A DNA stretch of 64,000 bases from positions 5,082 to 69,081 of the forward strand of contig CAZDEW010000005.1 of assembly GCA_964504585.1 (NCBI GenBank). Reading direction: 5' to 3'. The notes below the pieces were generated by a model. It did not search any database, was not told where the DNA came from, and saw only the letters and a program-made list of their open reading frames with translations. The translations under genes and the position numbers were made by a program. Positions 4,669 to 24,173 of this stretch are shown piece by piece; positions within the stretch are counted from its first letter, which is position 1, and every line of letters begins with the position of its first letter. This DNA comes from an uncultured Pseudomonadales bacterium. Its GTDB lineage: Bacteria > Pseudomonadota > Gammaproteobacteria > Pseudomonadales > UBA7434.

Positions 4669-4743
4669 GAGTTTACTTTGACTCGTCTGTAAATGTGCAC
4701 GGACGAGCCGAACTTTAACCATGCACATTAAGAGGAAATTATC

Positions 4744-5013
4744 ATGGCACTTAATGCAGTTGAAAAAGCAGCAATCGTCAAAGAGTATCAGCTAGATGCG
4801 AACGACACGGGTTCACCTGAAGTGCAGGTGGCGCTGTTGACTGAAAACATCAACAAGCTTCAGTCGCACTTTGGTGATCACAAGAAAGATCACCACTCGC
4901 GACGTGGTTTGATTCGAATGGTTAACCAGCGCCGCAAGCTGCTGGATTATCTCAAGAGCAAGGACACAGAGCGTTACTCTAGCTTGATCAAGCGCCTCGG
5001 TCTGCGTCGCTAA
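4744..5013 (+). CDS. rpsO: 30S ribosomal protein S15
   Basis: 89-aa ORF with [46 protein letters not shown], the canonical S15 sequence. Confidence 0.97.
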
Positions 5014-5176: not shown

Positions 5177-7285
5177 ATGAATCCCGTTATTAAGCAGTTC
5201 AGTTTTGGCGACCATACGGTCACTTTGGAGACCGGTCGTGTTGCAAGACAGGCCACAGGCGCAGTTTTGGTGACGATGGGAGAAACCGTCGTTTTGTGTA
5301 CAGTGGTTGGTAACAAAAAGGCCAAGCCCGGTCAGGACTTCTTCCCGCTGTCTGTGCACTATCAGGAAAAATATTATGCCGCTGGCAAGATTCCCGGCGG
5401 TTTCTTCAAGCGCGAAGCACGTCCATCAGAAAAAGAAACGCTCACTTCGCGTCTAATCGACAGACCAATCCGCCCGCTGTTTCCCGACGGCTATAAAAAT
5501 GAGGTACAGGTTATCTGTACAGTGGTCTCTGCCGATGCAGGTGTTGATCCCGACATCCCTGCAATGATCGGTACCTCCGCCGCGCTGGCGATTTCCGGCG
5601 TGCCGTTCAATGGTCCCATCGGTGCCGCGCGTGTCGGCTTTAACGACGAACAAGGTTATCTGTTGAATCCGGATTCAGAGCAGCTGTTGAGCTCAAAACT
5701 GAATATGGTTGTCGCGGGTACTAAAGAAGCGGTATTGATGGTTGAATCGGAAGCCGATGAACTATCCGAAGACCAAATGCTTGGAGCGGTACTTTACGCG
5801 CACCAGGAAATGCAGGGAGTGATTCAGGCGATTGATGCACTAGTCGCAGATGCGGGTAAAGAGCGCTGGGAGTATACGCCAGAGCCGGTTAACGCTTCGC
5901 TTGAGGCCGCAATTCAGGATCAGTTTGGTGCCGCGTTGAGCGAGGCCTACACGATCACGGAAAAGGCCAAGCGTTACGAAACGGTTGGCGCTTTGCGTGA
6001 TCAGGCCGTGGAAGCTCTGGTCAACGATGATACCTCTGAAGAGGAAGTTAAAAACCTGTTTGGAAAAATCGAAAAGAATACAGTGCGACAGCGTATTGTA
6101 GAGGGTAAGCCACGCATCGATGGTCGCGATCATGCCACTGTGCGACCTCTGGCTATTCAAGTCGGTGTGTTGCCCAAAACACACGGTTCCGCTCTGTTCA
6201 CGCGAGGAGAAACCCAGGCGCTGGTGACGACTACGCTGGGCCCAATTCGCGATGCTCAAATCATTGATGCGCTCGAGGGTTCCTCTAAAGATCCGTTTCT
6301 TTTCCACTATAACTTCCCAAGTTATTCTGTGGGTGAAGCGGGGCGGGTTGGTCCAGTTGGTCGCCGCGAAATCGGCCACGGCCGGTTGGCCAAGCGCGGC
6401 GTTCTGGCGATGATGCCAAGTGACCAGGATTTCCCCTATACCATTCGCGTGGTATCCGAAATCACCGAATCAAATGGCTCTTCATCGATGGCGTCTGTTT
6501 GCGGAAGCAGTTTGGCGCTGATGGATGCCGGTGTTCCTATCAAGTCTCCGGTAGCCGGTATTGCCATGGGTCTAGTCAAGGAGGGAGATCAGTTTGCGGT
6601 ACTCACCGATATTCTGGGTGATGAAGATCATCTGGGCGATATGGACTTTAAGGTAGCAGGTACCGAGCAAGGCGTCACAGCGCTGCAGATGGATATAAAA
6701 ATTGAAGGCATCACCGAGGAAATCATGGAGATTGCTCTCAATCAGGCTCTGGCTGCGCGATTGAATATCCTCGGCCAGATGAACAAGGTTATTGATCGTC
6801 CTCGCGACGAGCTTTCAGATAACGCGCCAGCGATGAGCTCGTTCAAGATTCATCCGGACAAAATACGCGATGTCATCGGTAAAGGAGGCGCTACGATTCG
6901 CTCAATTACTGAGGACACCGGCGCGGCGGTGGATATTGAGGATGATGGTACTGTCCGAATCTACGGCGAAGATAAAACCTCACTGCAGGCGGCTGTCGAT
7001 CGTGTCAACGAGATCACTGCCGAGGCTGAAGTGGGTGCGGTTTACGAAGGAAAAATTTCTAAAATCGTCGATTTTGGAGCTTTCGTAACAATCTTGCCTG
7101 GCAAGGATGGCCTTTTGCACATTTCCCAGATTTCTAAAGAGCGCGTTGAAAACGTGACTGATGTGTTAGAAGAAGGGCAAATGGTTAAGGTCAAAGTGCT
7201 TGATGTAGATCAGCGCGGAAGAATCAAGCTGAGCATAAAGGAGCTTGAAGCGGAAGCCGAGGCCGAGGCGGGTGCTGAAGCTTAG
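5177..7285 (+). CDS. pnp: Polyribonucleotide nucleotidyltransferase (PNPase)
   Basis: The ORF track opens at 5153, but the conserved N-terminus [20 protein letters not shown] begins at the ATG at 5177. Two RNase PH domains are present ([28 protein letters not shown]; [17 protein letters not shown]), followed by KH and S1 domains ([33 protein letters not shown]). Confidence 0.97.
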
Positions 7286-13325: not shown

Positions 13326-13792
13326 GCATTGGCATGTTTGCGGAGAGAAGAGGACTTTGCCCCGTAATCAGTTCATCGTCTGCCACTGCGAATAAGAGAT
13401 GCTGCAAAGCACTAGCAGGGCGAATTGATTGTAGCGGTTGTCGTGCGGAAAGACGATGCCTTAAGTGTCTGAGCTGTCAGTAAAATTCCCGGCTGCCGCT
13501 GGTAAAGCGAACTGTTTGCTGTGATCTGGAATTCTCTCAGCCCTCCACGAGCCATCAGGCTGCTGGGAAGGGTCTACGGACTGAAAGGCTGACTCGTAGA
13601 TAGCGCTGCCCAGGCTTGGTGCCCGCTGATGTTGCCTCGCACCCAGTGGCGAGCCCACTGATGCGACTTCCGGGGTACCGGCAGTGCTTAGCGATAAGTG
13701 GGTTTCACAGGTGAACTTCAAGAGCCGCAGTAAACGCCAACGATCCGCTGGTGGAGGATTAGTAGGGGGCGCCAAATCAGTCTGGAGACAGG

Positions 13793-13854
13793 CAGGTCAG
13801 GAAAGAGCTGGGTCTTGAGAGAACTGGGTCTGGAAAAAGTGGGTTTGGAAAGAA
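13793..13854. repeat. Four imperfect tandem repeats of 15-16 nt (plus-strand consensus CTGGGTCTGGAAAGAR)
   Basis: Read directly: CAGGTCAGGAAAGAG / CTGGGTCTTGAGAGAA / CTGGGTCTGGAAAAAG / TGGGTTTGGAAAGAA, head to tail. They sit in the non-coding gap between the putative sRNA and pcnB. Confidence 0.6.
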
Positions 13855-13954
13855 CGAGTGCCGAGAAGGAAATTTCCCGGTCAGGGGGTGCTAGCGCATT
13901 TGCGGCATTGGGCGCCCAGAGAATACAGTGGCATTTCCTAAGACATTTTCTAAA

Positions 13955-14070
13955 CGCCAGAAATGACGATGGGGAGCAAGCTCCCCATCTAGGTCTTCAT
14001 CTCTAGTTATTCGTTGTTCTCGCTAGCTTCTGTTATTTTAATTGGTGAAGCTTCAGTATTATTTTTATTT
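13955..14070 (-). ncRNA. Putative sigma-54-dependent A-rich small RNA (CrcZ-like by position and motif content)
   Basis: The minus-strand sequence downstream of the -24/-12 promoter carries three A-rich blocks: AAATAAAAATAATA, AAAATAACAGAAGC and GAACAACGAATAAC. It ends in a hairpin GATGGGGAG-CTTG-CTCCCCATC (plus-strand coordinates 13968-13989) followed by GTCATTTCT. No ORF is present. The position between the sigma-54 activator and pcnB mirrors crcZ in Pseudomonas. The 5' and 3' ends are estimates. Confidence 0.5.
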
Positions 14071-14080
14071 GCCTTCTAGA

Positions 14081-14097
14081 TTGCAGAGCTTGTGCCA
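14081..14097 (-). promoter_or_regulatory. Sigma-54 (RpoN) -24/-12 promoter
   Basis: The minus strand reads TGGCACAAGCTCTGCAA. GG and GC have exactly the spacing of the consensus TGGCAC-N5-TTGCW, with 5/6 + 4/5 matches. The site is in an intergenic region immediately downstream of a sigma-54 activator gene. Confidence 0.65.
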
Positions 14098-14170
14098 AGA
14101 AAAAATAATATATAAAAAACAGTAACTTATAAAATTTTAGGTTCCTTTTCTGCGATAAAGCGGACTTTGG

Positions 14171-14228
14171 TGTTACCGATTCTCCGGTTTTTTGTTACTC
14201 CGAAGTAATAATCAAAAGTGAGTGTTAC
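14171..14228. promoter_or_regulatory. Putative enhancer (UAS): three TGTTAC hexamers upstream of the sigma-54 promoter
   Basis: TGTTAC occurs at 14171-14176, 14193-14198 and 14223-14228 (GTAACA on the promoter strand). There is also an imperfect inverted pair, TATTAC-N6-GTAACA. The sites lie about 75-135 bp upstream of the -24 element and are separated from it by a very AT-rich tract (14100-14150). As I recall, TGTTAC/GTAACA is the half-site reported for Pseudomonas CbrB. Confidence 0.45.
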
Positions 14229-14263: not shown

Positions 14264-15763
14264 CTAGCCCTTGGCCGGTCGTATCACGCTCCTTTCCTTG
14301 CTTTTTTCGCGCGGTATTCCGAAGCGCTGGCGCCGCTCCCAAAGACATTTTCGACTGATGCCCAGCTTTTTGGCCAGTTCGGTCTCGTTCATATGAGCCT
14401 GATTTTCGATGACGAATTGCTGGAAATATTCTTCCAGCGAAACCCCGGCTTTGGGCTCCTCGAGTTTTACACCCCGATCATGGCGATGCATGGAATTGAT
14501 GACGTCATCTGCATCCTGATCCAGTTTGACCGCGGGGTGGGTTGCGCGCAGATTTCGCGAGGAGGCGAGCTCCTCACCGAGATCGATCTCCAGTGACACG
14601 CTGTCAATCGCGACACCGTTGGCCATAATCGCAGCGCGCTCGATCGTATTTTCCAGCTCTCGCACATTCCCTTCCCAGGGGTGCCGACTGATTGCTTCGA
14701 CTGCATCGGTGGTGAGGTACAGTCCCGGCTTTTCGTGCTTGAGGGCAGCCTTTTCAAGCAAGTGGTTGGCGATCAGGAATATATCGTTGCCGCGTTCACG
14801 CAGTAGCGGCAAGAAGATGCGAAAGACGTTGATCCGGTAATACAGGTCAGGTCTAAACTCACCGGTTTTACTTTGCGCCTGTAAATCACGGTGTGTCGCC
14901 GCTATCAGTCGCACGTCAACCTTCCGCGACTTATTGCTACCCACCGAGCGGACTTCGCTTTCCTGAATAAACCTGAGTAGTCTTGCCTGGGCTTCAGCCG
15001 GCAGTTCGCCGATTTCATCGAGAAAAAGCGTGCCACCTTCGGCTTCTTCTATAAGGCCAATGCGCTTGCCAGCGGCGCCTGTAAATGCGCCCTTTTCATG
15101 ACCGAAAAGCTCGGATTCAATGAGCGTTTCCGGAATCGCGGCGCAGTTGACCGCAACAAAGGGTTTGTTGGCGCGATCGCTTTGCTCATGAATCGCCTTG
15201 GCAATAAGTTCCTTGCCGGTGCCGGTTTCGCCGCGAATAAGCACTGTCGAACGCGTTGGTCCAACCTTGTAAATACGCTGGTAAACCTCCTGCATGGCCT
15301 CGCATTCGCCGATGAGTCCATCGGGCGCCCTCACAATGTCGATTGTTTCGGATTTCGCTGCTGTTGCTGAAGCTTGAGTTTGGCGCTTGAGGCTGGGGAA
15401 CCTGACTTTGGATGTATCGTTGATCGACCGCTTGAGAAAACCGCAGAGTGAGTCGATCGATGCAAAACAGCCCAGGGCGCCGGCGTGCCCATAGTCGCAG
15501 GCTTCATTGAGCGAGAGCTGATCGGACCAGATAATCCAGGGCAGGCCGGAGAGCGTGAGTTTGGCCACGTCTGCCGCTGCCAGCTCGCCATGGCAAAGCA
15601 AAATGGTTGTGGCTGTTGCCGATTCTGACTTATCGGGGCGAGACGCCTCGATGGCCAGATCCAGATCCGGCAAGTACTCCCCATCGATCTTGATGGCGTG
15701 GAGCTGCTTGGTGAGTGCTTTGGCTTGATCGGCCGAAGTGTGCGAGATAACTGCTCTGATCAT
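14264..15763 (-). CDS. Sigma-54-dependent transcriptional activator (bEBP) in the CbrB position, with a degenerate receiver-like N-terminal domain
   Basis: The AAA+ core has [15 protein letters not shown], the GAFTGA loop ([15 protein letters not shown]) and [13 protein letters not shown]-terminal HTH is present ([24 protein letters not shown]). The ORF opens at 15796, but MIRAVISH at 15763 is the more plausible start. The N-terminal ~120 aa lack the DD pair and the phospho-acceptor Asp. Confidence 0.9.
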
Positions 15764-17728: not shown

Positions 17729-20700
17729 TTGATTCAACACGCATTAGCGGCGGCCATCCGGCGCGCGAACCGGTCGCTTGCTGCGCTGCCGGTTGCCAAA
17801 TCGACGCTAGCAGTCGCGGTTGCTGCGGGCGGACTCGTTGCCTGTAGTTCCGATAGCTCCAATTCGTCTTCGTTTACTTTCGTACCCAACCCCGTGGTAA
17901 TCGGTGCGCCGACAGCCGCCGGTTTCGGGACCTTTTCCGACAGCTACCAGATCAATGGCCTGGTCAATGCTGGAAGTGCCGACGAGCTGGTCTCGCAGAT
18001 CGCGATCACTGCTAGCGTTGCCCAGGTCGATGCCAGCGGGAATTTGCTGCTTGATGCATCGGGCAATACCGATAATCTCAGTGCTATCGTCGGCGCACCG
18101 CAGGTTGTCGCGGATCCGCCTCTGGGTGATCAGACGGGCGGCTTTTACTGGCAGGCCGATATCTCGGTGCTTTCGACCGGCACCAATCTGATGGAATACA
18201 CGGCGACCTACCCGGACAATCCTGATGCGCTCTCGGCTGATCTTGGTGGGGTGATCCGGGGTAATAGCTGGATGCGAGAGCTGGCAATCCAGTATGACCC
18301 AGCCGATCCCGGCGGCAACTCATATCTTTTGTTGGATCAGCTCGATACAGGTGCCGGCACCGGTATCCTGAGAGTTGACGCCACCGATGGAACGAAAGAG
18401 CGAATCGATTTGGATCAAACCGGGCTGAGCGATGGCGACCTCGATCGTCCCGTGGATTTTCTGCTTGATGACACCACAGCTTACATTCTCGACGGCGATA
18501 CTCCGCGATTAATACAGGTTGCCGACATCACTGCCGGCACTCCGGTGCTTTCGGACGTTACGGACTGCGGTGAAGTTACCGACGAGCTCGCGCTGGTTGA
18601 CCCGGTTGCGTTTGCTTACAATCCGGCGGCTGTCGGCAGCGAGCCTAGGTTCTTTGTGGCGGATCGGGGCAGCAAGGAAATTATTCTGATTGACGCTGAT
18701 GACAACTGTACCGTCCTGCCGACCTTGCGTGCGACAGAGTTCGATGATCCCTTAAGCGATGATGTAGAGGATACGCTGCTGGTATCGGATGCCAAGGCCA
18801 TATTGCCCTACGACATCGCTTACCACGCAGCCACTGAAACCTTGTTTGTCACTGGCGGCTGGCTGCTCAGCACCAGCATTGCAGTCGAAGAGACACTGGT
18901 GGATGCGAGTGGAAACCCTATCCTGGACGCCAGCGGCAATGAGCAAACCGTCGAGGTTGCCCGCGAGACCAGTCAGCCGTCGAACAATTTTGGCGTCCCC
19001 AGCATTCTTTATAAAATTGAGCTCGGGGAAGAGCTGGATGCCTCGGGCAATCCCACGAATCTCGATCGGCTGCACAGACAGCAGGTGAACTACGTATCCG
19101 AAACCGGGCCCAGCGAAGAGGGCGGCTCTGACGACACCGTGTTCAGGGTCAATCAGCCCGGCTCATTGCTGATCGACGGTGATCGGCTATTTATCGTGGA
19201 TCGCTTTGCTGGCATCAATCAAAACTCTGAGGCACTGGCGGGTGTGTTAGTGGCCGATGTCAGCGATGGCAGGCCGCGTCCGACCGATATGGACGCGACG
19301 CCGATGCAACAGCCCGAAGACTATGTCTTTACGCCCGTTAGCGGTTTTTACACCGGCCAGAATATTGGTTCGCTAGATTTGGGGAATCCCTCGAATCGAG
19401 ATTTTAAGCAGTTACTGGGCGTTGAGAGTTTTGCTATTCGCAGCGATCAGAATCAGCTTGTCACCTACAGTTCGGCGCTCGGCTCCTATCTAACTATTGA
19501 GCTTGCGCCTCCAGCAGTGGGTAGTGGCTGTATTGGCTTCGTTGGAACCGGTGCAGACCCCGACAACGCCAATCGTATTCAGTGTGATTTTGATGGTACG
19601 CGCAATCTGGTTCCCGGGGGCGCCTCGGTCGCGCGTATTATCGATGACGATGGTACTGACGAAATAGAGTTCACCCGCACCGGCAGAGCTAATTTCGATC
19701 CGCGCATTCTTACCTCGCTTGTGAACGATGGTGCTGACACCCTGGCCTTTGACCGCCTGACCGGGGAGTTCTCGCTCAATCTCGGCGTTTTGGGCACGCT
19801 ATTCGCGAGCGAGGACAATGGACTACCGAGTGACGATAACAGCGGTTTGCTGTTCAGTGATGCCCGTGCGCTGGTCAGTGACGGCGTGTCAATCTACGCG
19901 GTAGCATCATTTTATGACGCGGAAGAGAGCTGCGTTCCGTCTGCGAGCGCCGCCTGTATTCCGGAGCAGTCCTCGCAGCTCATTGAGTTTTCCATCGGCG
20001 ATCGCACGCGCAGCATCGTCGAACCCGATGCGGTTGGCTCAGCAATTGAGTTTATGGAGCCCGTTGCCTCAGAGGTAGTCTTGCCCAGGGTCTGGACCCC
20101 GGATATTGGCGATCTGGTGGGCGACGATCTGGATAATCGCCTCGCCGAGATATCCTTTGGCATTGACCTTTACACCGCTGATTCTTCGTTTGCAGGTTCG
20201 GGAACAATCATCAAGACCGAACTCGATCAGTTCGAACTGGATCTAGCAGCGGATCCGGCTGAGGTCGTCGACAATGAGACGCGTGGTACGCGGACGCTGC
20301 TGGCGAGCAACTGCCCTGCGCCCAATCTTGGCGCCGTCACAGCGATGGCCCGGGTTCGGTTCTCCAGTAGTGACATCAACGATGACGGTAACTTAACGAC
20401 TCAGGGAACCGGAGATTTTGACGAGAGCGATGGCAATGTATTCGAGACCTTGAGTGCACTGTTGCTAGCAACAGATAACAACGAACTTTTAGCGGTTGAT
20501 CTCTTGCTCGGTGACTGCGTTCAGATAGCTAGCTTCCCATCACCCGTCAACAGCCTGCAAATTACTGAGCAGCAAACTGAGCGTGATGACACCGATGGCA
20601 GTGATCAAGGGGGGGTGCTGCGCCGTGCTTTCAGAGTGGTCGCGATGAGCCCTGATGATCATACCTTGTTTGAATTGCAGTGTGAGGAGAATGACCCGCG

Positions 20701-21067
20701 TAACAACTTGAATGCCGTCAACATTGCCTGCGGGACACCGGGTAGCGGATCGCCGGTTGCCGGTCCGCCCCTGGCTCTTGGTTTGAATGCCTCAGATGGA
20801 AATCCTGTCGACTCGACTTTTATACCTTCACCCGCGACCTTTACTTTTTTCCCGGGAAACCGGGCCGCGTTCATTTTTGATGACCGTACCAACGCCACTT
20901 ACTTGAGTGATATGTCGTTTCGCGAGGATAGCGGCCCTGGTGCGGGCGGCCCTACCGACACCGAGGACGATGCTGATTTGGCAACGAGACAGACGGTGAT
21001 CACGGTTTTCGGATCCGCGCTGAACTGCGACCCAGAGAACTTTCCGGCTGCGTGCAGAAATCTATAG
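17729..21067 (+). CDS. Large (1112 aa) Asp-rich predicted lipoprotein of unknown function
   Basis: TTG start preceded by AGGAG 7 nt upstream. The signal peptide ends in the lipobox GLVAC followed by SSDSS. The long ORF has uniform coding character and recurring DASGN motifs. I recognise no family. Confidence 0.75.
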   Translation: MIQHALAAAIRRANRSLAALPVAKSTLAVAVAAGGLVACSSDSSNSSSFTFVPNPVVIGAPTAAGFGTFSDSYQINGLVNAGSADELVSQIAITASVAQVDASGNLLLDASGNTDNLSAIVGAPQVVADPPLGDQTGGFYWQADISVLSTGTNLMEYTATYPDNPDALSADLGGVIRGNSWMRELAIQYDPADPGGNSYLLLDQLDTGAGTGILRVDATDGTKERIDLDQTGLSDGDLDRPVDFLLDDTTAYILDGDTPRLIQVADITAGTPVLSDVTDCGEVTDELALVDPVAFAYNPAAVGSEPRFFVADRGSKEIILIDADDNCTVLPTLRATEFDDPLSDDVEDTLLVSDAKAILPYDIAYHAATETLFVTGGWLLSTSIAVEETLVDASGNPILDASGNEQTVEVARETSQPSNNFGVPSILYKIELGEELDASGNPTNLDRLHRQQVNYVSETGPSEEGGSDDTVFRVNQPGSLLIDGDRLFIVDRFAGINQNSEALAGVLVADVSDGRPRPTDMDATPMQQPEDYVFTPVSGFYTGQNIGSLDLGNPSNRDFKQLLGVESFAIRSDQNQLVTYSSALGSYLTIELAPPAVGSGCIGFVGTGADPDNANRIQCDFDGTRNLVPGGASVARIIDDDGTDEIEFTRTGRANFDPRILTSLVNDGADTLAFDRLTGEFSLNLGVLGTLFASEDNGLPSDDNSGLLFSDARALVSDGVSIYAVASFYDAEESCVPSASAACIPEQSSQLIEFSIGDRTRSIVEPDAVGSAIEFMEPVASEVVLPRVWTPDIGDLVGDDLDNRLAEISFGIDLYTADSSFAGSGTIIKTELDQFELDLAADPAEVVDNETRGTRTLLASNCPAPNLGAVTAMARVRFSSSDINDDGNLTTQGTGDFDESDGNVFETLSALLLATDNNELLAVDLLLGDCVQIASFPSPVNSLQITEQQTERDDTDGSDQGGVLRRAFRVVAMSPDDHTLFELQCEENDPRNNLNAVNIACGTPGSGSPVAGPPLALGLNASDGNPVDSTFIPSPATFTFFPGNRAAFIFDDRTNATYLSDMSFREDSGPGAGGPTDTEDDADLATRQTVITVFGSALNCDPENFPAACRNL

Positions 21068-23116: not shown

Positions 23117-23501
23117 CCAGCGCGTCTGTTCCGAAAATCCCTCCTTGTAAAATCTTCCATACGTTTGCGCTGACAGTGAAAGCTGATCGCCACAGTGTCG
23201 CTGCCAAATTTAATCGATGGCTGCAGTTAAGATAAACTGTTAGCGTCATGCGCCTGAATCTAACCGTTTTTCTATTTGGTGAATAATAGCGTTTGCTCGA
23301 AAAAAAGACCAAAAAACAATCAGGTTTTCTTGCGGTTCTCGACAAATACGCTATATACATTGTTGGGTACAGTGAAAGAGCTGCCCGGTGTAAATGGCTG
23401 ACCCCCAACAGGGTTTCTCGTCAGATGGGGCTAGCGTTGATCTATGTGTTGATGCTGCCACATAGTCAGTTTGAAATTGCTAATTCGGCTTGGAGATTAG
23501 T

Positions 23502-24173
23502 GTGAGCGTTAAATTACTAGATAATGAAGCTTTCTTTGGTTTTAGGGTGCGCCGTACCGTCGACGGCAAATTGTTCCAGGAGTATTTTAGCCTCAAGAAG
23601 AACGGCAAACGCCTAACGGGCGATGCAAGAAAGCGTGTGGAGTCTGCCGCATTGCGCCGTGATAAGGCTTTGGCCAAAGCCCAGGTGGAGGCCAAGCAGG
23701 CAAATAAGGCTGAACGTTGTTTTAATCCGAACGGGTCGGTCAGGGGTATCAGCTATCTGGTCAAGACAGAAAAAAGCGGCACTAAAACGCCAATCTTTCA
23801 GGTTGGTATCGCCTCTGAGTCCGATGGGAAGATTATTTGCACGAGCTACTCTATTAACGCTCATGGAAAAGAGGCGGCCTGGGCAATGGCTGTGGCGACC
23901 TTTGCCCAGCACAAAGATATCAAGAAGGGCACCAAACTATACAAGCAGTTGTTAGCGGCGATGCCCAAGCGAGTCTCCTCGAATAAGAGGAAGACTGTTA
24001 AAAAAGCTGGCAAGAAATCTGCAGCCAAAAAATCAGCTAAAAAGAAAGCTGTGAAAAAGAAATCGGTGAAGAAGAAAGCCGCGAAGAAAAAAACAGCGGC
24101 TAAAAAGAAAGTTGCTAAAAAGAAAACGGCGGCAAAGCGTAAAGCAACCAGGAAAAAAGCCGCGAAAAAGTAG
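23502..24173 (+). CDS. DNA-binding protein with a histone-H1-like Lys/Ala-rich C-terminal tail
   Basis: The ORF track opens at a TTG at 23490. The GTG at 23502 has GGAG 6 nt upstream and is preferred. The C-terminal ~70 aa are K/A repeats (KKAGKKSAAKKSAKKKAVKKKSVKKKAAKKK...). The N-terminal half has two beta-sheet motifs resembling AP2-type DNA-binding repeats (FGFRVRRTVDGKLFQEYFS; GISYLVKTEKSG..FQVGIASESDGKIICTSYSINAHGKEAAW). Confidence 0.75.
   Translation: MSVKLLDNEAFFGFRVRRTVDGKLFQEYFSLKKNGKRLTGDARKRVESAALRRDKALAKAQVEAKQANKAERCFNPNGSVRGISYLVKTEKSGTKTPIFQVGIASESDGKIICTSYSINAHGKEAAWAMAVATFAQHKDIKKGTKLYKQLLAAMPKRVSSNKRKTVKKAGKKSAAKKSAKKKAVKKKSVKKKAAKKKTAAKKKVAKKKTAAKRKATRKKAAKK

What the first reader, a model, noticed from the sequence alone, without database searches (positions are those of the whole stretch)
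13955..14228. Sigma-54 promoter, TGTTAC enhancer hexamers and an A-rich terminator-capped small RNA: a CrcZ-like module
Seen directly on the minus strand:
- TGGCACAAGCTCTGCAA (14097-14081) has the exact GG-N10-GC spacing of RpoN promoters.
- About 75-135 bp upstream there are three GTAACA hexamers (TGTTAC on the plus strand at 14171, 14193 and 14223), followed by an AT-rich tract that could bend.
- Downstream is a ~115-nt ORF-free sequence with three A-rich blocks (AAATAAAAATAATA, AAAATAACAGAAGC, GAACAACGAATAAC). These fit ARN / AAnAAnAA-type Hfq/Crc-binding motifs.
- It ends in the hairpin GATGGGGAG-CTTG-CTCCCCATC followed by a U-containing tail.

Established knowledge: in Pseudomonas the order is cbrB - crcZ (sigma-54- and CbrB-dependent, multiple AAnAAnAA motifs) - pcnB - folK - panB - panC, with dksA and gluQ on the other side. 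That neighbourhood is reproduced here. The CbrB half-site I recall is TGTTAC/GTAACA.

Inference: this is a much shorter, sequence-divergent functional analogue of CrcZ that sequesters Hfq. To my knowledge, such a module has been little studied outside the Pseudomonadaceae and Azotobacter.
Basis: partly seen in the sequence, partly recalled or inferred. Interest (0 to 1): 0.7.

Follow-up and report, generated by a model that had tools for sequence, protein, structure and literature searches.

The report
Miniature CrcZ-type small RNA gene
An uncultured marine gammaproteobacterium carries a conserved, roughly 115-base version of the Pseudomonas carbon-control RNA CrcZ with its sigma-54 promoter and CbrB-type activator, which extends a system that reviews call exclusive to the Pseudomonadaceae.

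Summary

**What is on the minus strand.** Between a sigma-54 activator gene and pcnB lie, in order:
- three GTAACA hexamers
- an IHF-like AT-rich box
- TGGCAC-N5-CTGCA
- a roughly 115-nt A-rich RNA ending in a strong compound hairpin

**Conservation.**
- The same layout recurs in more than 20 syntenic loci, from relatives whose activators are 57-81% identical.
- The RNA is 82-94% identical across relatives. The neighbouring activator gene is 64-73% identical at DNA level, and the DNA just downstream does not align (37-52%).

**Homologue, not only analogue.** Rfam's CrcZ model matches its 3' third weakly (24.5 bits against a 95-bit threshold), here and in relatives.

- cbrA is absent.
- The activator's N-terminal domain keeps the receiver fold but has lost the phosphorylation residues.
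- Only one block is a strict AAnAAnAA motif.
- Short CrcZ-like RNAs also occur in cultured Spongiibacter and Litorivivens, next to intact cbrX-cbrA-cbrB.

**Untested.** Titration of Hfq is inferred. Whether Crc is present could not be determined.

**Verdict.** This is a new variant of a known kind, of moderate to good interest.

The parts
14264..15763 (-). Gene for the sigma-54 enhancer-binding activator (499 aa from ATG 15763). It is a CbrB orthologue with a degenerate, non-phosphorylatable receiver-fold N-domain.
   Evidence: Pfam finds Sigma54_activat at 1.6e-73 plus an AAA lid, and no Response_reg. No REC match appears even at E<=10, while the control relative scores 1e-16. The HTH ...[18 protein letters not shown] is invariant with Pseudomonas CbrB. 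The acidic pair and the Lys are lost, and the phospho-Asp position is Glu. AlphaFold gives a (beta-alpha)5 N-domain at pLDDT about 87. The best PDB matches are receiver+AAA+ structures NtrC1, NtrX, LuxO and FleQ. Identity to Pseudomonas CbrB is 50%, with the same synteny.
14223..14228 (-). GTAACA hexamer 1, the distal CbrB-type half-site. It lies in R orientation, in place of the canonical inverted F1.
   Evidence: The hexamer is invariant in the clade alignment. The half-site sequence comes from PMC8871633 and PMC6296734.
14193..14198 (-). GTAACA hexamer 2, equivalent to Pseudomonas R1. Its centre is 22 bp from hexamer 3 and 30 bp from hexamer 1.
   Evidence: The N16 spacing to hexamer 3 equals the R1-N16-R2 spacing in Pseudomonas locus L001.
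14171..14176 (-). GTAACA hexamer 3, equivalent to Pseudomonas R2. It lies 73 nt upstream of TGGCAC.
   Evidence: In Pseudomonas fildesensis the R2-to-TGGCAC distance is 76 nt.
14113..14129 (-). IHF-like box TAAGTTACTGTTTTTTA between the enhancer and the promoter.
   Evidence: TA(A/T)GTTA(Y)TGTT(W)TTTA is an invariant island in the promoter alignment. Relatives L100 and L005 carry perfect YAANNNNTTGATW matches at the same place. IHF dependence of crcZ and crcY promoters is published (PMC6296734). The window copy has two mismatches to the consensus, so this assignment is an inference.
14082..14097 (-). Sigma-54 (-24/-12) promoter TGGCACAAGCTCTGCA.
   Evidence: It is unique in the window. TTGGCACA and CTGCAAT are invariant in the clade. 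TGGCAY-N5-xTGCA is present in every orthologous locus that has enough upstream sequence.
13957..14071 (-). Predicted small RNA of about 115 nt, a miniature CrcZ homologue. The start is inferred 12 nt after the -12 C. The end is inferred after UCAUUUCUGG.
   Evidence: Rfam CrcZ partial hit at 14052-13959, matching model positions 280-375. Own covariance model R1 scores 142 bits and finds a single copy in the window. MFE -31 kcal/mol, z-score -4.75. Identity to relatives is 82-94%. In Pseudomonas the Rfam CrcZ start lies 13 nt after the -12 C and also opens with an A-rich motif.
14057..14070 (-). A-rich block 1, AAAUAAAAAUAAUA, at the unpaired 5' end. It has four ARN triplets and is the only strict AAnAAnAA match.
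   Evidence: The AUAA-AAUAA columns are invariant over 9 sequences.
14025..14052 (-). Hairpin 1: a 6-bp stem AGCUUC/GAAGCU presenting a 16-nt A-rich loop, ACCAAUUAAAAUAACA.
   Evidence: It aligns with the last A-rich hairpin of the CrcZ model. The stem sequence differs between lineages (GGCUUC/GAAGCU, CUUUCGC/GCGAAAG, GCUCG/CGAGU, UAGC/GCUA), but an A-rich loop is always presented. All five pairs of this helix have changes on both sides, although only 51% of cells pair in the model-fitted alignment.
14006..14021 (-). A-rich block 3, GAGAACAACGAAUAAC, unpaired. It has 2+2 ARN triplets interrupted by one G.
   Evidence: GAGAACAAYGAAUAAY is conserved in the clade.
13957..14006 (-). Compound 3' stem: outer 10 bp (CUAGAGAUGA/UCAUUUCUGG), 7-nt internal loop AGACCUA, inner 9-bp terminator hairpin 13989-13968 with CUUG loop. 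The U-tract is weak.
   Evidence: The inner stem is identical in 17 of 17 sequences. The outer stem has 5 pairs with double changes, for example G.U to U-A in L088 and L090. The architecture is the same as the CrcZ model's terminal element.

Best explanation
This is an independent small-RNA gene, a miniature homologue of Pseudomonas CrcZ.

**Proposed mechanism.**
1. The adjacent CbrB-type enhancer-binding protein binds the three same-face GTAACA hexamers. Their centres lie about 100-155 bp upstream of the start.
2. An IHF-type bend brings the activator to sigma-54 RNA polymerase held at TGGCAC-N5-CTGCA.
3. ATP hydrolysis opens the promoter, and transcription starts near 14071.
4. The transcript of about 115 nt displays three A-rich (ARN-type) sites: one at the free 5' end, one in a hairpin loop and one single-stranded. 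A very stable 3' compound hairpin follows.
5. By analogy with CrcZ, these sites occupy the distal face of Hfq, possibly together with Crc. That titrates Hfq away from A-rich sites at the ribosome-binding regions of catabolic mRNAs and lifts translational repression.

**What differs from Pseudomonas.** No CbrA kinase is encoded next to the activator, and the activator's receiver domain has lost the phosphorylation chemistry. Activator control must therefore be phosphorylation-independent. The level of the activator itself is one candidate, since its own promoter is bracketed by the same half-sites.

**Shown.** Sequence anatomy, conservation, homology and synteny.

**Inferred.** The start site, sigma-54 and activator dependence, IHF, Hfq binding and the physiological output.
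For: **Anatomy and statistics.**

**Footprinting.** The invariant islands in the promoter alignment are exactly the three hexamers, the IHF-like box and the -24/-12 element.

**Selection on the RNA.** It is 82-94% identical, against 64-73% for the activator gene DNA and 37-52% for the downstream spacer.

**Recurrence.**
- The same module sits in the same dksA-gluQ-activator-[RNA]-pcnB context in loci reached through the protein.
- It also appears in 12 metagenome contigs reached only through the terminator sequence. Every one with enough upstream sequence has the hexamers and the sigma-54 box.

**Homology to CrcZ.**
- The sub-threshold Rfam hit covers model positions 280-375, which are the last A-rich hairpin, the last A-rich stretch and the terminator. 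It recurs in relatives.
- Full CrcZ sits at the identical locus position in Pseudomonas, at 234-350 bits.
- The R1-N16-R2 spacing matches, and R2-to-promoter is 73 nt here against 76 nt in Pseudomonas.

**Activator.**
- Its DNA-binding helix is invariant with Pseudomonas CbrB, and the GAFTGA and Walker motifs are intact.

**Structure.**
- z-score -4.75.
- The hairpin presenting an A-rich loop is kept through different stem sequences.
- Covariation score 0.103 against 0.055 in shuffles (0 of 500 reach it), and above all slid controls.

**Literature.**
- The CbrB site consensus and IHF dependence are in PMC8871633 and PMC6296734.
- AAnAAnAA recognition by Hfq and sequestration by CrcZ are in PMC5113210, PMC4063720 and PMC10832556.
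Against: - No expression data exist. The start site, the 3' end and RpoN dependence are inferred.
- The window copy has only one strict AAnAAnAA motif. Its A-rich content is not above chance within the window.
- Each site offers about 4 ARN triplets, not the 6 that would fill an Hfq hexamer.
- The Rfam score is far below the family threshold (24.5 against 95). My own model does not significantly detect Pseudomonas CrcZ (at most 14.8 bits).
- The terminator tail is U-poor and predicted to be base-paired, so read-through towards pcnB is possible.
- Presence of hfq, crc and rpoN in this genome could not be checked.
- The extreme sequence invariance of the 3' module is not explained by a sponge model.
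Confidence: 0.68

Rival explanations
1. The RNA is a regulated leader or attenuator of pcnB-folK. The sigma-54 promoter's real product is the poly(A) polymerase mRNA, and the hairpin is a conditional terminator.
For: The RNA-pcnB adjacency is conserved in every locus examined. The terminator tail is U-poor and predicted to be paired. No sigma-70-like promoter was found between the hairpin and pcnB.
Against: The spacer between hairpin and pcnB varies from about 300 to 650 nt and does not align between relatives, at 37-52% identity. A leader would be expected to show conservation there. At the identical position in Pseudomonas the product is the discrete sRNA CrcZ (PMC5113210). The 9-bp GC-rich stem is strong.
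Confidence: 0.1
2. The RNA is a base-pairing (seed-type) or other protein-binding sRNA. Its functional core would be the invariant 3' element GAUGAAGACCUAG with its AGACCUA internal loop, and the A-rich parts would be secondary, for example Hfq loading or RNase E sites.
For: The 3' module is nearly invariant across lineages in which the A-rich part drifts in sequence, number and length. The inner stem shows no compensatory change in 17 of 17 sequences. That exceeds what a terminator requires.
Against: A-rich blocks are retained in all members, always in unpaired or loop contexts. The 5' AUAA-AAUAA columns are invariant too. The module is homologous and syntenic with CrcZ, which acts by sequestration. 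No target was identified.
Confidence: 0.15
3. There is no sRNA. The hairpin is just the terminator of the activator gene, and the sigma-54 motif and A-rich tract are chance features of an AT-rich spacer.
For: The sigma-54 pattern alone occurs by chance in 22 of 100 shuffles of the window. The A-rich motifs are not enriched.
Against: The hairpin lies 275 nt past the stop codon. The -24/-12 boxes, the hexamers and the RNA are conserved in more than 20 loci while flanking spacer is not. The triple-hexamer cluster has 0.00 chance expectation.
Confidence: 0.03

Closest known systems
CrcZ of Pseudomonas aeruginosa and P. putida (Rfam RF01675)
   Same: - The locus is the same, between cbrB and pcnB.
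- The promoter is sigma-54 type, with GTAACA-type CbrB half-sites and an IHF box at matching distances.
- The RNA starts with an A-rich motif.
- It has a hairpin with an A-rich loop followed by a single-stranded A-rich stretch.
- The terminal GGGGAGCUU(cg)GCUCCCC hairpin sits inside an outer stem.
- The partial covariance-model match covers positions 280-375.
   Different: - It is about 115 nt, not about 400 nt.
- It has three A-rich sites (one strict AAnAAnAA) where CrcZ has five or six.
- Its score is far below the Rfam threshold.
- The enhancer has three direct repeats and no inverted F1.
- No cbrA is adjacent, and the activator cannot be phosphorylated.
- The invariant GAUGAAGACCUAG element is absent from Pseudomonas CrcZ.
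CrcY and CrcX (Pseudomonas) and CrcZ/CrcY of Azotobacter vinelandii
   Same: They are CbrB- and sigma-54-dependent A-rich Hfq/Crc antagonists.
   Different: Those are paralogous copies of about 370-400 nt at other loci within the Pseudomonadaceae. Here a single short copy was found: none elsewhere in the 64 kb window, and every metagenome match with enough flanking sequence lies in the cbrB-pcnB context.
Short CrcZ-like RNAs next to canonical cbrX-cbrA-cbrB in Spongiibacter taiwanensis and Litorivivens lipolytica (found here, not described in the literature searched)
   Same: They are about 115-nt A-rich RNAs with a related GACCUGG(A/G)UGGGGA terminator, behind a sigma-54 promoter with an F1-R1-R2 enhancer. 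Model R1 scores them at 38.9 and 51.8 bits.
   Different: Those genomes keep CbrA, CbrX and a canonical receiver (VEDE..SDLRLPG..AKPF). The window lineage has lost all three features.
Enhancer-binding proteins with degenerate or absent receivers (FleQ, VpsR, PspF)
   Same: The AAA+ sigma-54 activator has an N-domain that keeps the receiver fold without phosphorylation chemistry. FleQ and VpsR appear among the structural matches. Some marine relatives lack the N-domain altogether, like PspF.
   Different: These are different regulons with different DNA-binding domains. The control inputs known for those proteins (c-di-GMP, FleN, PspA) have no demonstrated counterpart here.
Protein-titrating sRNAs in general (CsrB/RsmY/RsmZ)
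   Same: The logic is the same: a repeated-motif decoy RNA under an alternative regulator.
   Different: Those titrate CsrA/RsmA through GGA motifs in loops. This RNA has no such motifs.

Membership tests
CrcZ sRNA family (Rfam RF01675) | Scores at or above the family's gathering threshold (95 bits) with the covariance model | tested here: not met
   There is no hit at the gathering threshold. In E-value mode the score is 24.5 bits, E = 2.8e-4, covering model positions 280-375 only.
CrcZ sRNA family (Rfam RF01675) | Encoded directly downstream of cbrB and upstream of pcnB | tested here: met
   NCBIfam and Pfam identify the flanking genes. Full CrcZ occupies the same position in Pseudomonas loci L001, L003 and L005.
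CrcZ sRNA family (Rfam RF01675) | Sigma-54 promoter with upstream CbrB half-sites (TGTTAC/GTAACA) and an IHF site | tested here: met
   Met at sequence level. See, with the consensus from PMC8871633. The orientation of the distal site differs (R in place of F1). Function was not tested.
CrcZ sRNA family (Rfam RF01675) | About 400 nt with five to six AAnAAnAA motifs | tested here: not met
   The RNA is about 115 nt. It has one strict AAnAAnAA site and two looser ARN-type blocks.
CrcZ sRNA family (Rfam RF01675) | Binds and sequesters Hfq (with Crc) and relieves catabolite repression | not testable with these tools
   This needs EMSA, RIP-seq or genetics. hfq and crc lie outside the window. Crc homologues could not be tied to these genomes.
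CbrB response regulator (CbrAB two-component system) | NtrC-type AAA+ domain with GAFTGA, plus a C-terminal HTH that recognises TGTTAC/GTAACA | tested here: met
   Sigma54_activat scores 1.6e-73. GAFTGA, the Walker motifs and the helix [11 protein letters not shown] are invariant with Pseudomonas, Halopseudomonas and Gilvimarinus CbrB. DNA binding itself was not tested.
CbrB response regulator (CbrAB two-component system) | Receiver domain with acidic pocket, phospho-acceptor Asp and conserved Lys | tested here: not met
   Pfam finds no REC even at E<=10, while the control relative scores 1e-16. The alignment shows SHTS in place of VEDE, GEL in place of SDL, and no AKPF. The receiver fold is retained.
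CbrB response regulator (CbrAB two-component system) | Cognate kinase CbrA (SLC5-PAS-HK) encoded immediately upstream | tested here: not met
   gluQ directly precedes the activator. tblastn with Pseudomonas CbrA finds nothing in the 64 kb window or in any CbrA-less locus. It does find orthologues in Pseudomonas, Gilvimarinus and Cellvibrionaceae loci and in Spongiibacter and Litorivivens. A kinase elsewhere in the genome cannot be excluded.
Sigma-54 dependent promoter | TGGCAC-N5-TTGCW-like element with GG-N10-GC spacing, conserved, with a cognate activator nearby | tested here: met
   The transcription start and RpoN dependence are not testable here.

The most novel reading that the evidence does not exclude
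In this uncultured marine lineage the CbrB-CrcZ circuit has been rewired into a kinase-free form.
- The activator carries a pseudo-receiver. In sister lineages it carries an Asp-to-Glu receiver or no receiver at all. It would no longer be controlled by phosphorylation but by its own abundance or by an unknown ligand or partner.
- The three-site RNA would work as a minimal Hfq decoy, possibly without Crc.
- Its invariant GAUGAAGACCUAG internal-loop element would be a second, sequence-specific interaction surface that Pseudomonas CrcZ lacks.
Probability: 0.3. Interest if true: 0.72.

Novelty: new variant of a known kind. Interest (0 to 1): 0.58.

Why it matters
**It contradicts the reviews.** Reviews state that CbrAB and CrcZ are exclusive to the Pseudomonadaceae (PMC8871633, PMC6296734). 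They also state that Crc is confined to Pseudomonas and Azotobacter (PMC10832556). The data here show three things:
- The activator-sigma-54-A-rich-RNA module is widespread in marine Cellvibrionales-type gammaproteobacteria.
- The common form outside the Pseudomonadaceae is a roughly 115-nt RNA.
- Several lineages have dropped the CbrA kinase and the receiver's phosphorylation chemistry.

**What it offers.**
- It is a natural minimal CrcZ with three sites, suitable for structural and quantitative work on Hfq(-Crc) decoys.
- It gives an evolutionary series, from canonical receiver to Asp-to-Glu to pseudo-receiver to no receiver. That series could be used to ask what signal the Cbr pathway really senses, which is a long-standing open question.
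- It gives an entry point to carbon-source hierarchy control in abundant marine heterotrophs. Cultured hosts for experiments are Spongiibacter taiwanensis and Litorivivens lipolytica.

Tried and rejected
- **Rfam at gathering threshold.** It found nothing at this locus.
- **Scan of genome contigs with the activator protein.** The generic FGHEKGAF pattern saturated the scan. It returned mostly unrelated enhancer-binding proteins, and only L001-L007 were useful.
- **MAFFT alignment of the RNAs.** It mis-registers hairpin 1. Per-sequence folds and a model-fitted alignment were used in its place. That alignment leans towards the model's structure.
- **Model R1 against Pseudomonas CrcZ.** There was no significant hit with filters off, the best being 14.8 bits at E = 1.8. 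The link to CrcZ therefore rests on the Rfam model, synteny and promoter architecture.
- **A-rich motif enrichment within the window.** Not significant.
- **Search for hfq and crc in the window and all loci.** Nothing was found, which is uninformative.
- **Crc database search.** Homologues go down to 58% identity in unnamed contigs. None shares a contig-length fingerprint with the genomes that carry the short RNA, and context look-ups were exhausted.
- **Small ORFs inside the RNA.** I considered the 12-codon ATG at 13987 within the hairpin and rejected it by inspection. It has no Shine-Dalgarno sequence, it lies in the terminator stem, and its length differs in relatives.
- **A strict link between the short RNA and loss of CbrA.** I first thought the two went together. 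Spongiibacter and Litorivivens refute this.
- **Literature.** No paper in the library co-mentions CrcZ with Cellvibrionales, Spongiibacter, Oceanospirillales, Halieaceae or SAR92. No CrcZ outside the Pseudomonadaceae turned up in the CrcZ + marine search.
Full report
**1. Observation**

- GTAACA occurs at 14228-14223, 14198-14193 and 14176-14171.
- An AT-rich tract follows the hexamers.
- TGGCACAAGCTCTGCA lies at 14097-14082.
- An A-rich stretch follows the promoter.
- The hairpin GATGGGGAG-CTTG-CTCCCCATC lies at 13989-13968, with tail GTCATTTCTG.

The flanking genes on the minus strand, in order, are as follows.
- dksA
- gluQ
- a sigma-54 activator
- the 938-bp spacer
- pcnB
- folK
- a deoxynucleoside kinase gene
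- panB
- panC

Chance levels differ between features.
- The sigma-54 pattern is unique in 64 kb. That is only mildly unusual: 0.27 expected, and 22 of 100 shuffles have at least one match.
- Three GTAACA within 58 bp never occurred in shuffles. The hexamer overall is at its chance frequency, 16 against 16.9.
- The A-rich motifs alone are not enriched in this window.

**2. Comparative evidence**

*Relatives reached through the protein.*
- The activator's relatives were traced to their contigs.
- Every locus has dksA-gluQ-activator-spacer-pcnB.
- Every spacer with enough sequence has GTAACA/TGTTAC hexamers, an AAGTTATTGTTTTTTA-like box and TGGCAY-N5-xTGCA. An A-rich RNA of 110-125 nt follows, ending in GA(U)GAAGACCURGAUGGGGAG-N4-CUCCCCAUC.

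*Relatives reached through the terminator.* A metagenome scan used only the terminator sequence. It returned 12 more contigs. All of those with upstream sequence again have the hexamers and the sigma-54 box. Those with sufficient flanks have the activator upstream and pcnB downstream.

*Footprinting.* In the promoter alignment of the window's clade, the invariant islands are exactly the three hexamers, the IHF-like box, TTGGCACA and CTGCAAT.

*Conservation.* The RNA is 82-94% identical between lineages. Their activator genes are 64-73% identical at DNA level, and the spacer after the hairpin does not align at 37-52%.

**3. The RNA**

*Start.* Taking +1 at 12 nt after the -12 C gives 14071. The Rfam CrcZ annotation in Pseudomonas starts at the equivalent offset and likewise opens with an A-rich motif.

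*Fold.* The 115-nt RNA folds at -31 kcal/mol, z-score -4.75. Its elements are:
- a free 5' AAAUAAAAAUAAUA
- a 6-bp hairpin presenting a 16-nt A-rich loop
- a free GAGAACAACGAAUAAC
- a 10-bp outer stem, the 7-nt loop AGACCUA and a 9-bp inner stem

*Support for the structure.*
- In other lineages the hairpin-1 stem has a different sequence (GGCUUC/GAAGCU, CUUUCGC/GCGAAAG, GCUCG/CGAGU, UAGC/GCUA). It still presents an A-rich loop.
- On a model-fitted alignment of 17 sequences the covariation score is 0.103 against 0.055 in shuffles (0 of 500 reach it), and it exceeds all slid controls. The inner stem never varies.
- A covariance model built here finds one copy in the window, at 142 bits.

**4. 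Relation to CrcZ**
- Rfam's CrcZ model gives no hit at its threshold.
- It gives a specific partial hit of 24.5 bits, E = 2.8e-4. Window 14052-13959 aligns to model positions 280-375, which are the last A-rich hairpin, the last A-rich stretch and the terminal hairpin.
- The same sub-threshold hit is the only, or the best, Rfam match in 4 of 6 relatives.
- Full-length CrcZ (234-350 bits) sits at the same locus position in Pseudomonas.
- The R1-N16-R2 spacing is identical. R2-to-promoter is 73 nt here against 76 nt in Pseudomonas.
- The published CbrB site is TGTTAC-N12-14-GTAACA-N15-19-GTAACA, with IHF dependence (PMC8871633, PMC6296734).

I conclude that the RNA is a shortened homologue of CrcZ, not just an analogue. 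It fails two defining features of the Rfam family, score and size/motif number. I therefore file it as a variant, not a member.

**5. The activator**
- It is 50% identical to Pseudomonas CbrB.
- The DNA-recognition helix, GAFTGA and the Walker motifs are invariant.
- Pfam finds no receiver domain, not even at E<=10, whereas a relative's N-domain scores 1e-16.
- The alignment shows loss of the acidic pair and of the conserved Lys. Glu replaces the phospho-Asp here, and Thr replaces it in the 81% relative.
- AlphaFold nevertheless predicts a confident (beta-alpha)5 domain. The best PDB matches are receiver+AAA+ structures, including FleQ and VpsR, which have non-canonical receivers.
- No CbrA is encoded in the window or next to the activator in any locus of this type.

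Receiver state differs across lineages.

| Lineage | N-terminal domain |
|---|---|
| Window clade | no recognisable receiver signature; receiver fold predicted for the window protein |
| L093, L094, L096 | receiver with the phospho-Asp replaced by Glu |
| L097, L098, L102 | receiver with a decayed pocket |
| L100, L103-L105 | no N-domain at all |
| CbrA-linked loci (Pseudomonas, Gilvimarinus, Cellvibrionaceae, Spongiibacter, Litorivivens) | canonical receiver |

The short RNA is not tied to loss of CbrA. Spongiibacter taiwanensis and Litorivivens lipolytica have cbrX-cbrA-cbrB plus a roughly 115-nt RNA that my model recognises at 38.9 and 51.8 bits.

**6. Organism**

PNPase from the window is 77-83% identical to MAGs labelled Gammaproteobacteria, Pseudomonadales or Cellvibrionales. 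It is 73-74% identical to cultured Cellvibrionales such as Pseudomaricurvus, Marinimicrobium and Thalassocella. The source is therefore an uncultured lineage outside the Pseudomonadaceae.

**7. Mechanism**

*Best supported.* This is a CbrB-type, sigma-54- and IHF-dependent sRNA. Its exposed A-rich sites titrate Hfq, possibly with Crc, as CrcZ does (PMC4063720, PMC5113210, PMC10832556).

*Shown.* Anatomy, conservation, homology and synteny.

*Inferred.* Transcription start, factor dependence, Hfq binding and output. With three sites of about four ARN triplets, capacity per molecule would be about half that of CrcZ.

*Rivals.*
- A pcnB leader or attenuator. The U-poor tail and conserved adjacency favour it. 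The non-conserved, length-variable spacer argues against it.
- A seed-type or other protein-binding RNA centred on the invariant 3' element.
- A mere terminator. Conservation rejects this.

**8. Unexplained**

GAUGAAGACCUAGAUGGGGAGCUUGCUCCCCAUC is essentially fixed across lineages that differ freely elsewhere. No compensatory change is seen in the inner stem, and the internal loop is also fixed. Something appears to read the sequence itself.

**9. Novelty**

The literature searched describes CbrAB and CrcZ as exclusive to the Pseudomonadaceae. No paper links CrcZ to Cellvibrionales-type bacteria. The finding is a new variant of a known kind. It is of moderate to good interest, and hosts for direct experiments were identified.

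Noticed in passing
window 15865-15826 (minus strand), overlapping the gluQ stop codon at 15857-15855: CTGTTACCTAAGGTAAAACTTTTCTATACTAGCGGTTACA lies upstream of the activator gene and is almost invariant in the window's clade. A TGTTAC half-site sits at a -35-like position. A TATACT -10-like box lies at 15841-15836. A second GTTACA (GTAACG in other relatives) follows just after. It looks like a sigma-70 promoter of the activator gene bracketed by the activator's own half-sites, which suggests autoregulation.
   Followed up: partly
loci L093-L105, compared with L001-L007, L109 and L110: There is a graded series of activator N-terminal domains. Canonical receivers occur where cbrA is adjacent. 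Where cbrA is absent, the domain is Asp-to-Glu, pocket-decayed, unrecognisable or missing altogether.
   Followed up: partly
L109 (Spongiibacter taiwanensis CP098455.1) and L110 (Litorivivens lipolytica); also L002, L004 and L007: Complete cbrX-cbrA-cbrB loci with F1-R1-R2 sites and sigma-54 promoters exist in Cellvibrionales-type genera. This contradicts review statements that CbrAB is unique to the Pseudomonadaceae. Gilvimarinus (L002) has a very long A-rich RNA region of about 300 nt that no Rfam model detects.
   Followed up: partly
window 17729-21067 (+): A 1112-aa ORF has no Pfam or NCBIfam match. It is conserved, at 30-57% identity, divergently upstream of dksA in the related loci.
   Followed up: no
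window 13326-13956 (minus strand): About 630 nt lie between the RNA's hairpin and pcnB. No promoter-like site was detected there, and there is no conservation between relatives. The 104-aa ORF at 13461-13775 has no family match. How pcnB is transcribed here is unclear.
   Followed up: partly
window 24039-24124 (+), inside ORF 23490-24173: AAAAAGAA/AAGAAGAA motifs recur every 15 nt, which probably encodes a Lys/Glu-rich pentapeptide repeat.
   Followed up: no
window 4679-4800 (+): A ribosomal protein S15 leader (Rfam RF00114, 55.4 bits) lies upstream of rpsO-pnp. This is ordinary.
   Followed up: no
L004 about 5610-5625 (uncultured Cellvibrionaceae): The longer A-rich RNA of this CbrA-bearing lineage contains UAGAGAUGAGGAC. 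This resembles the short RNA's UAGAGAUGAAGACC box and may be an intermediate form.
   Followed up: no
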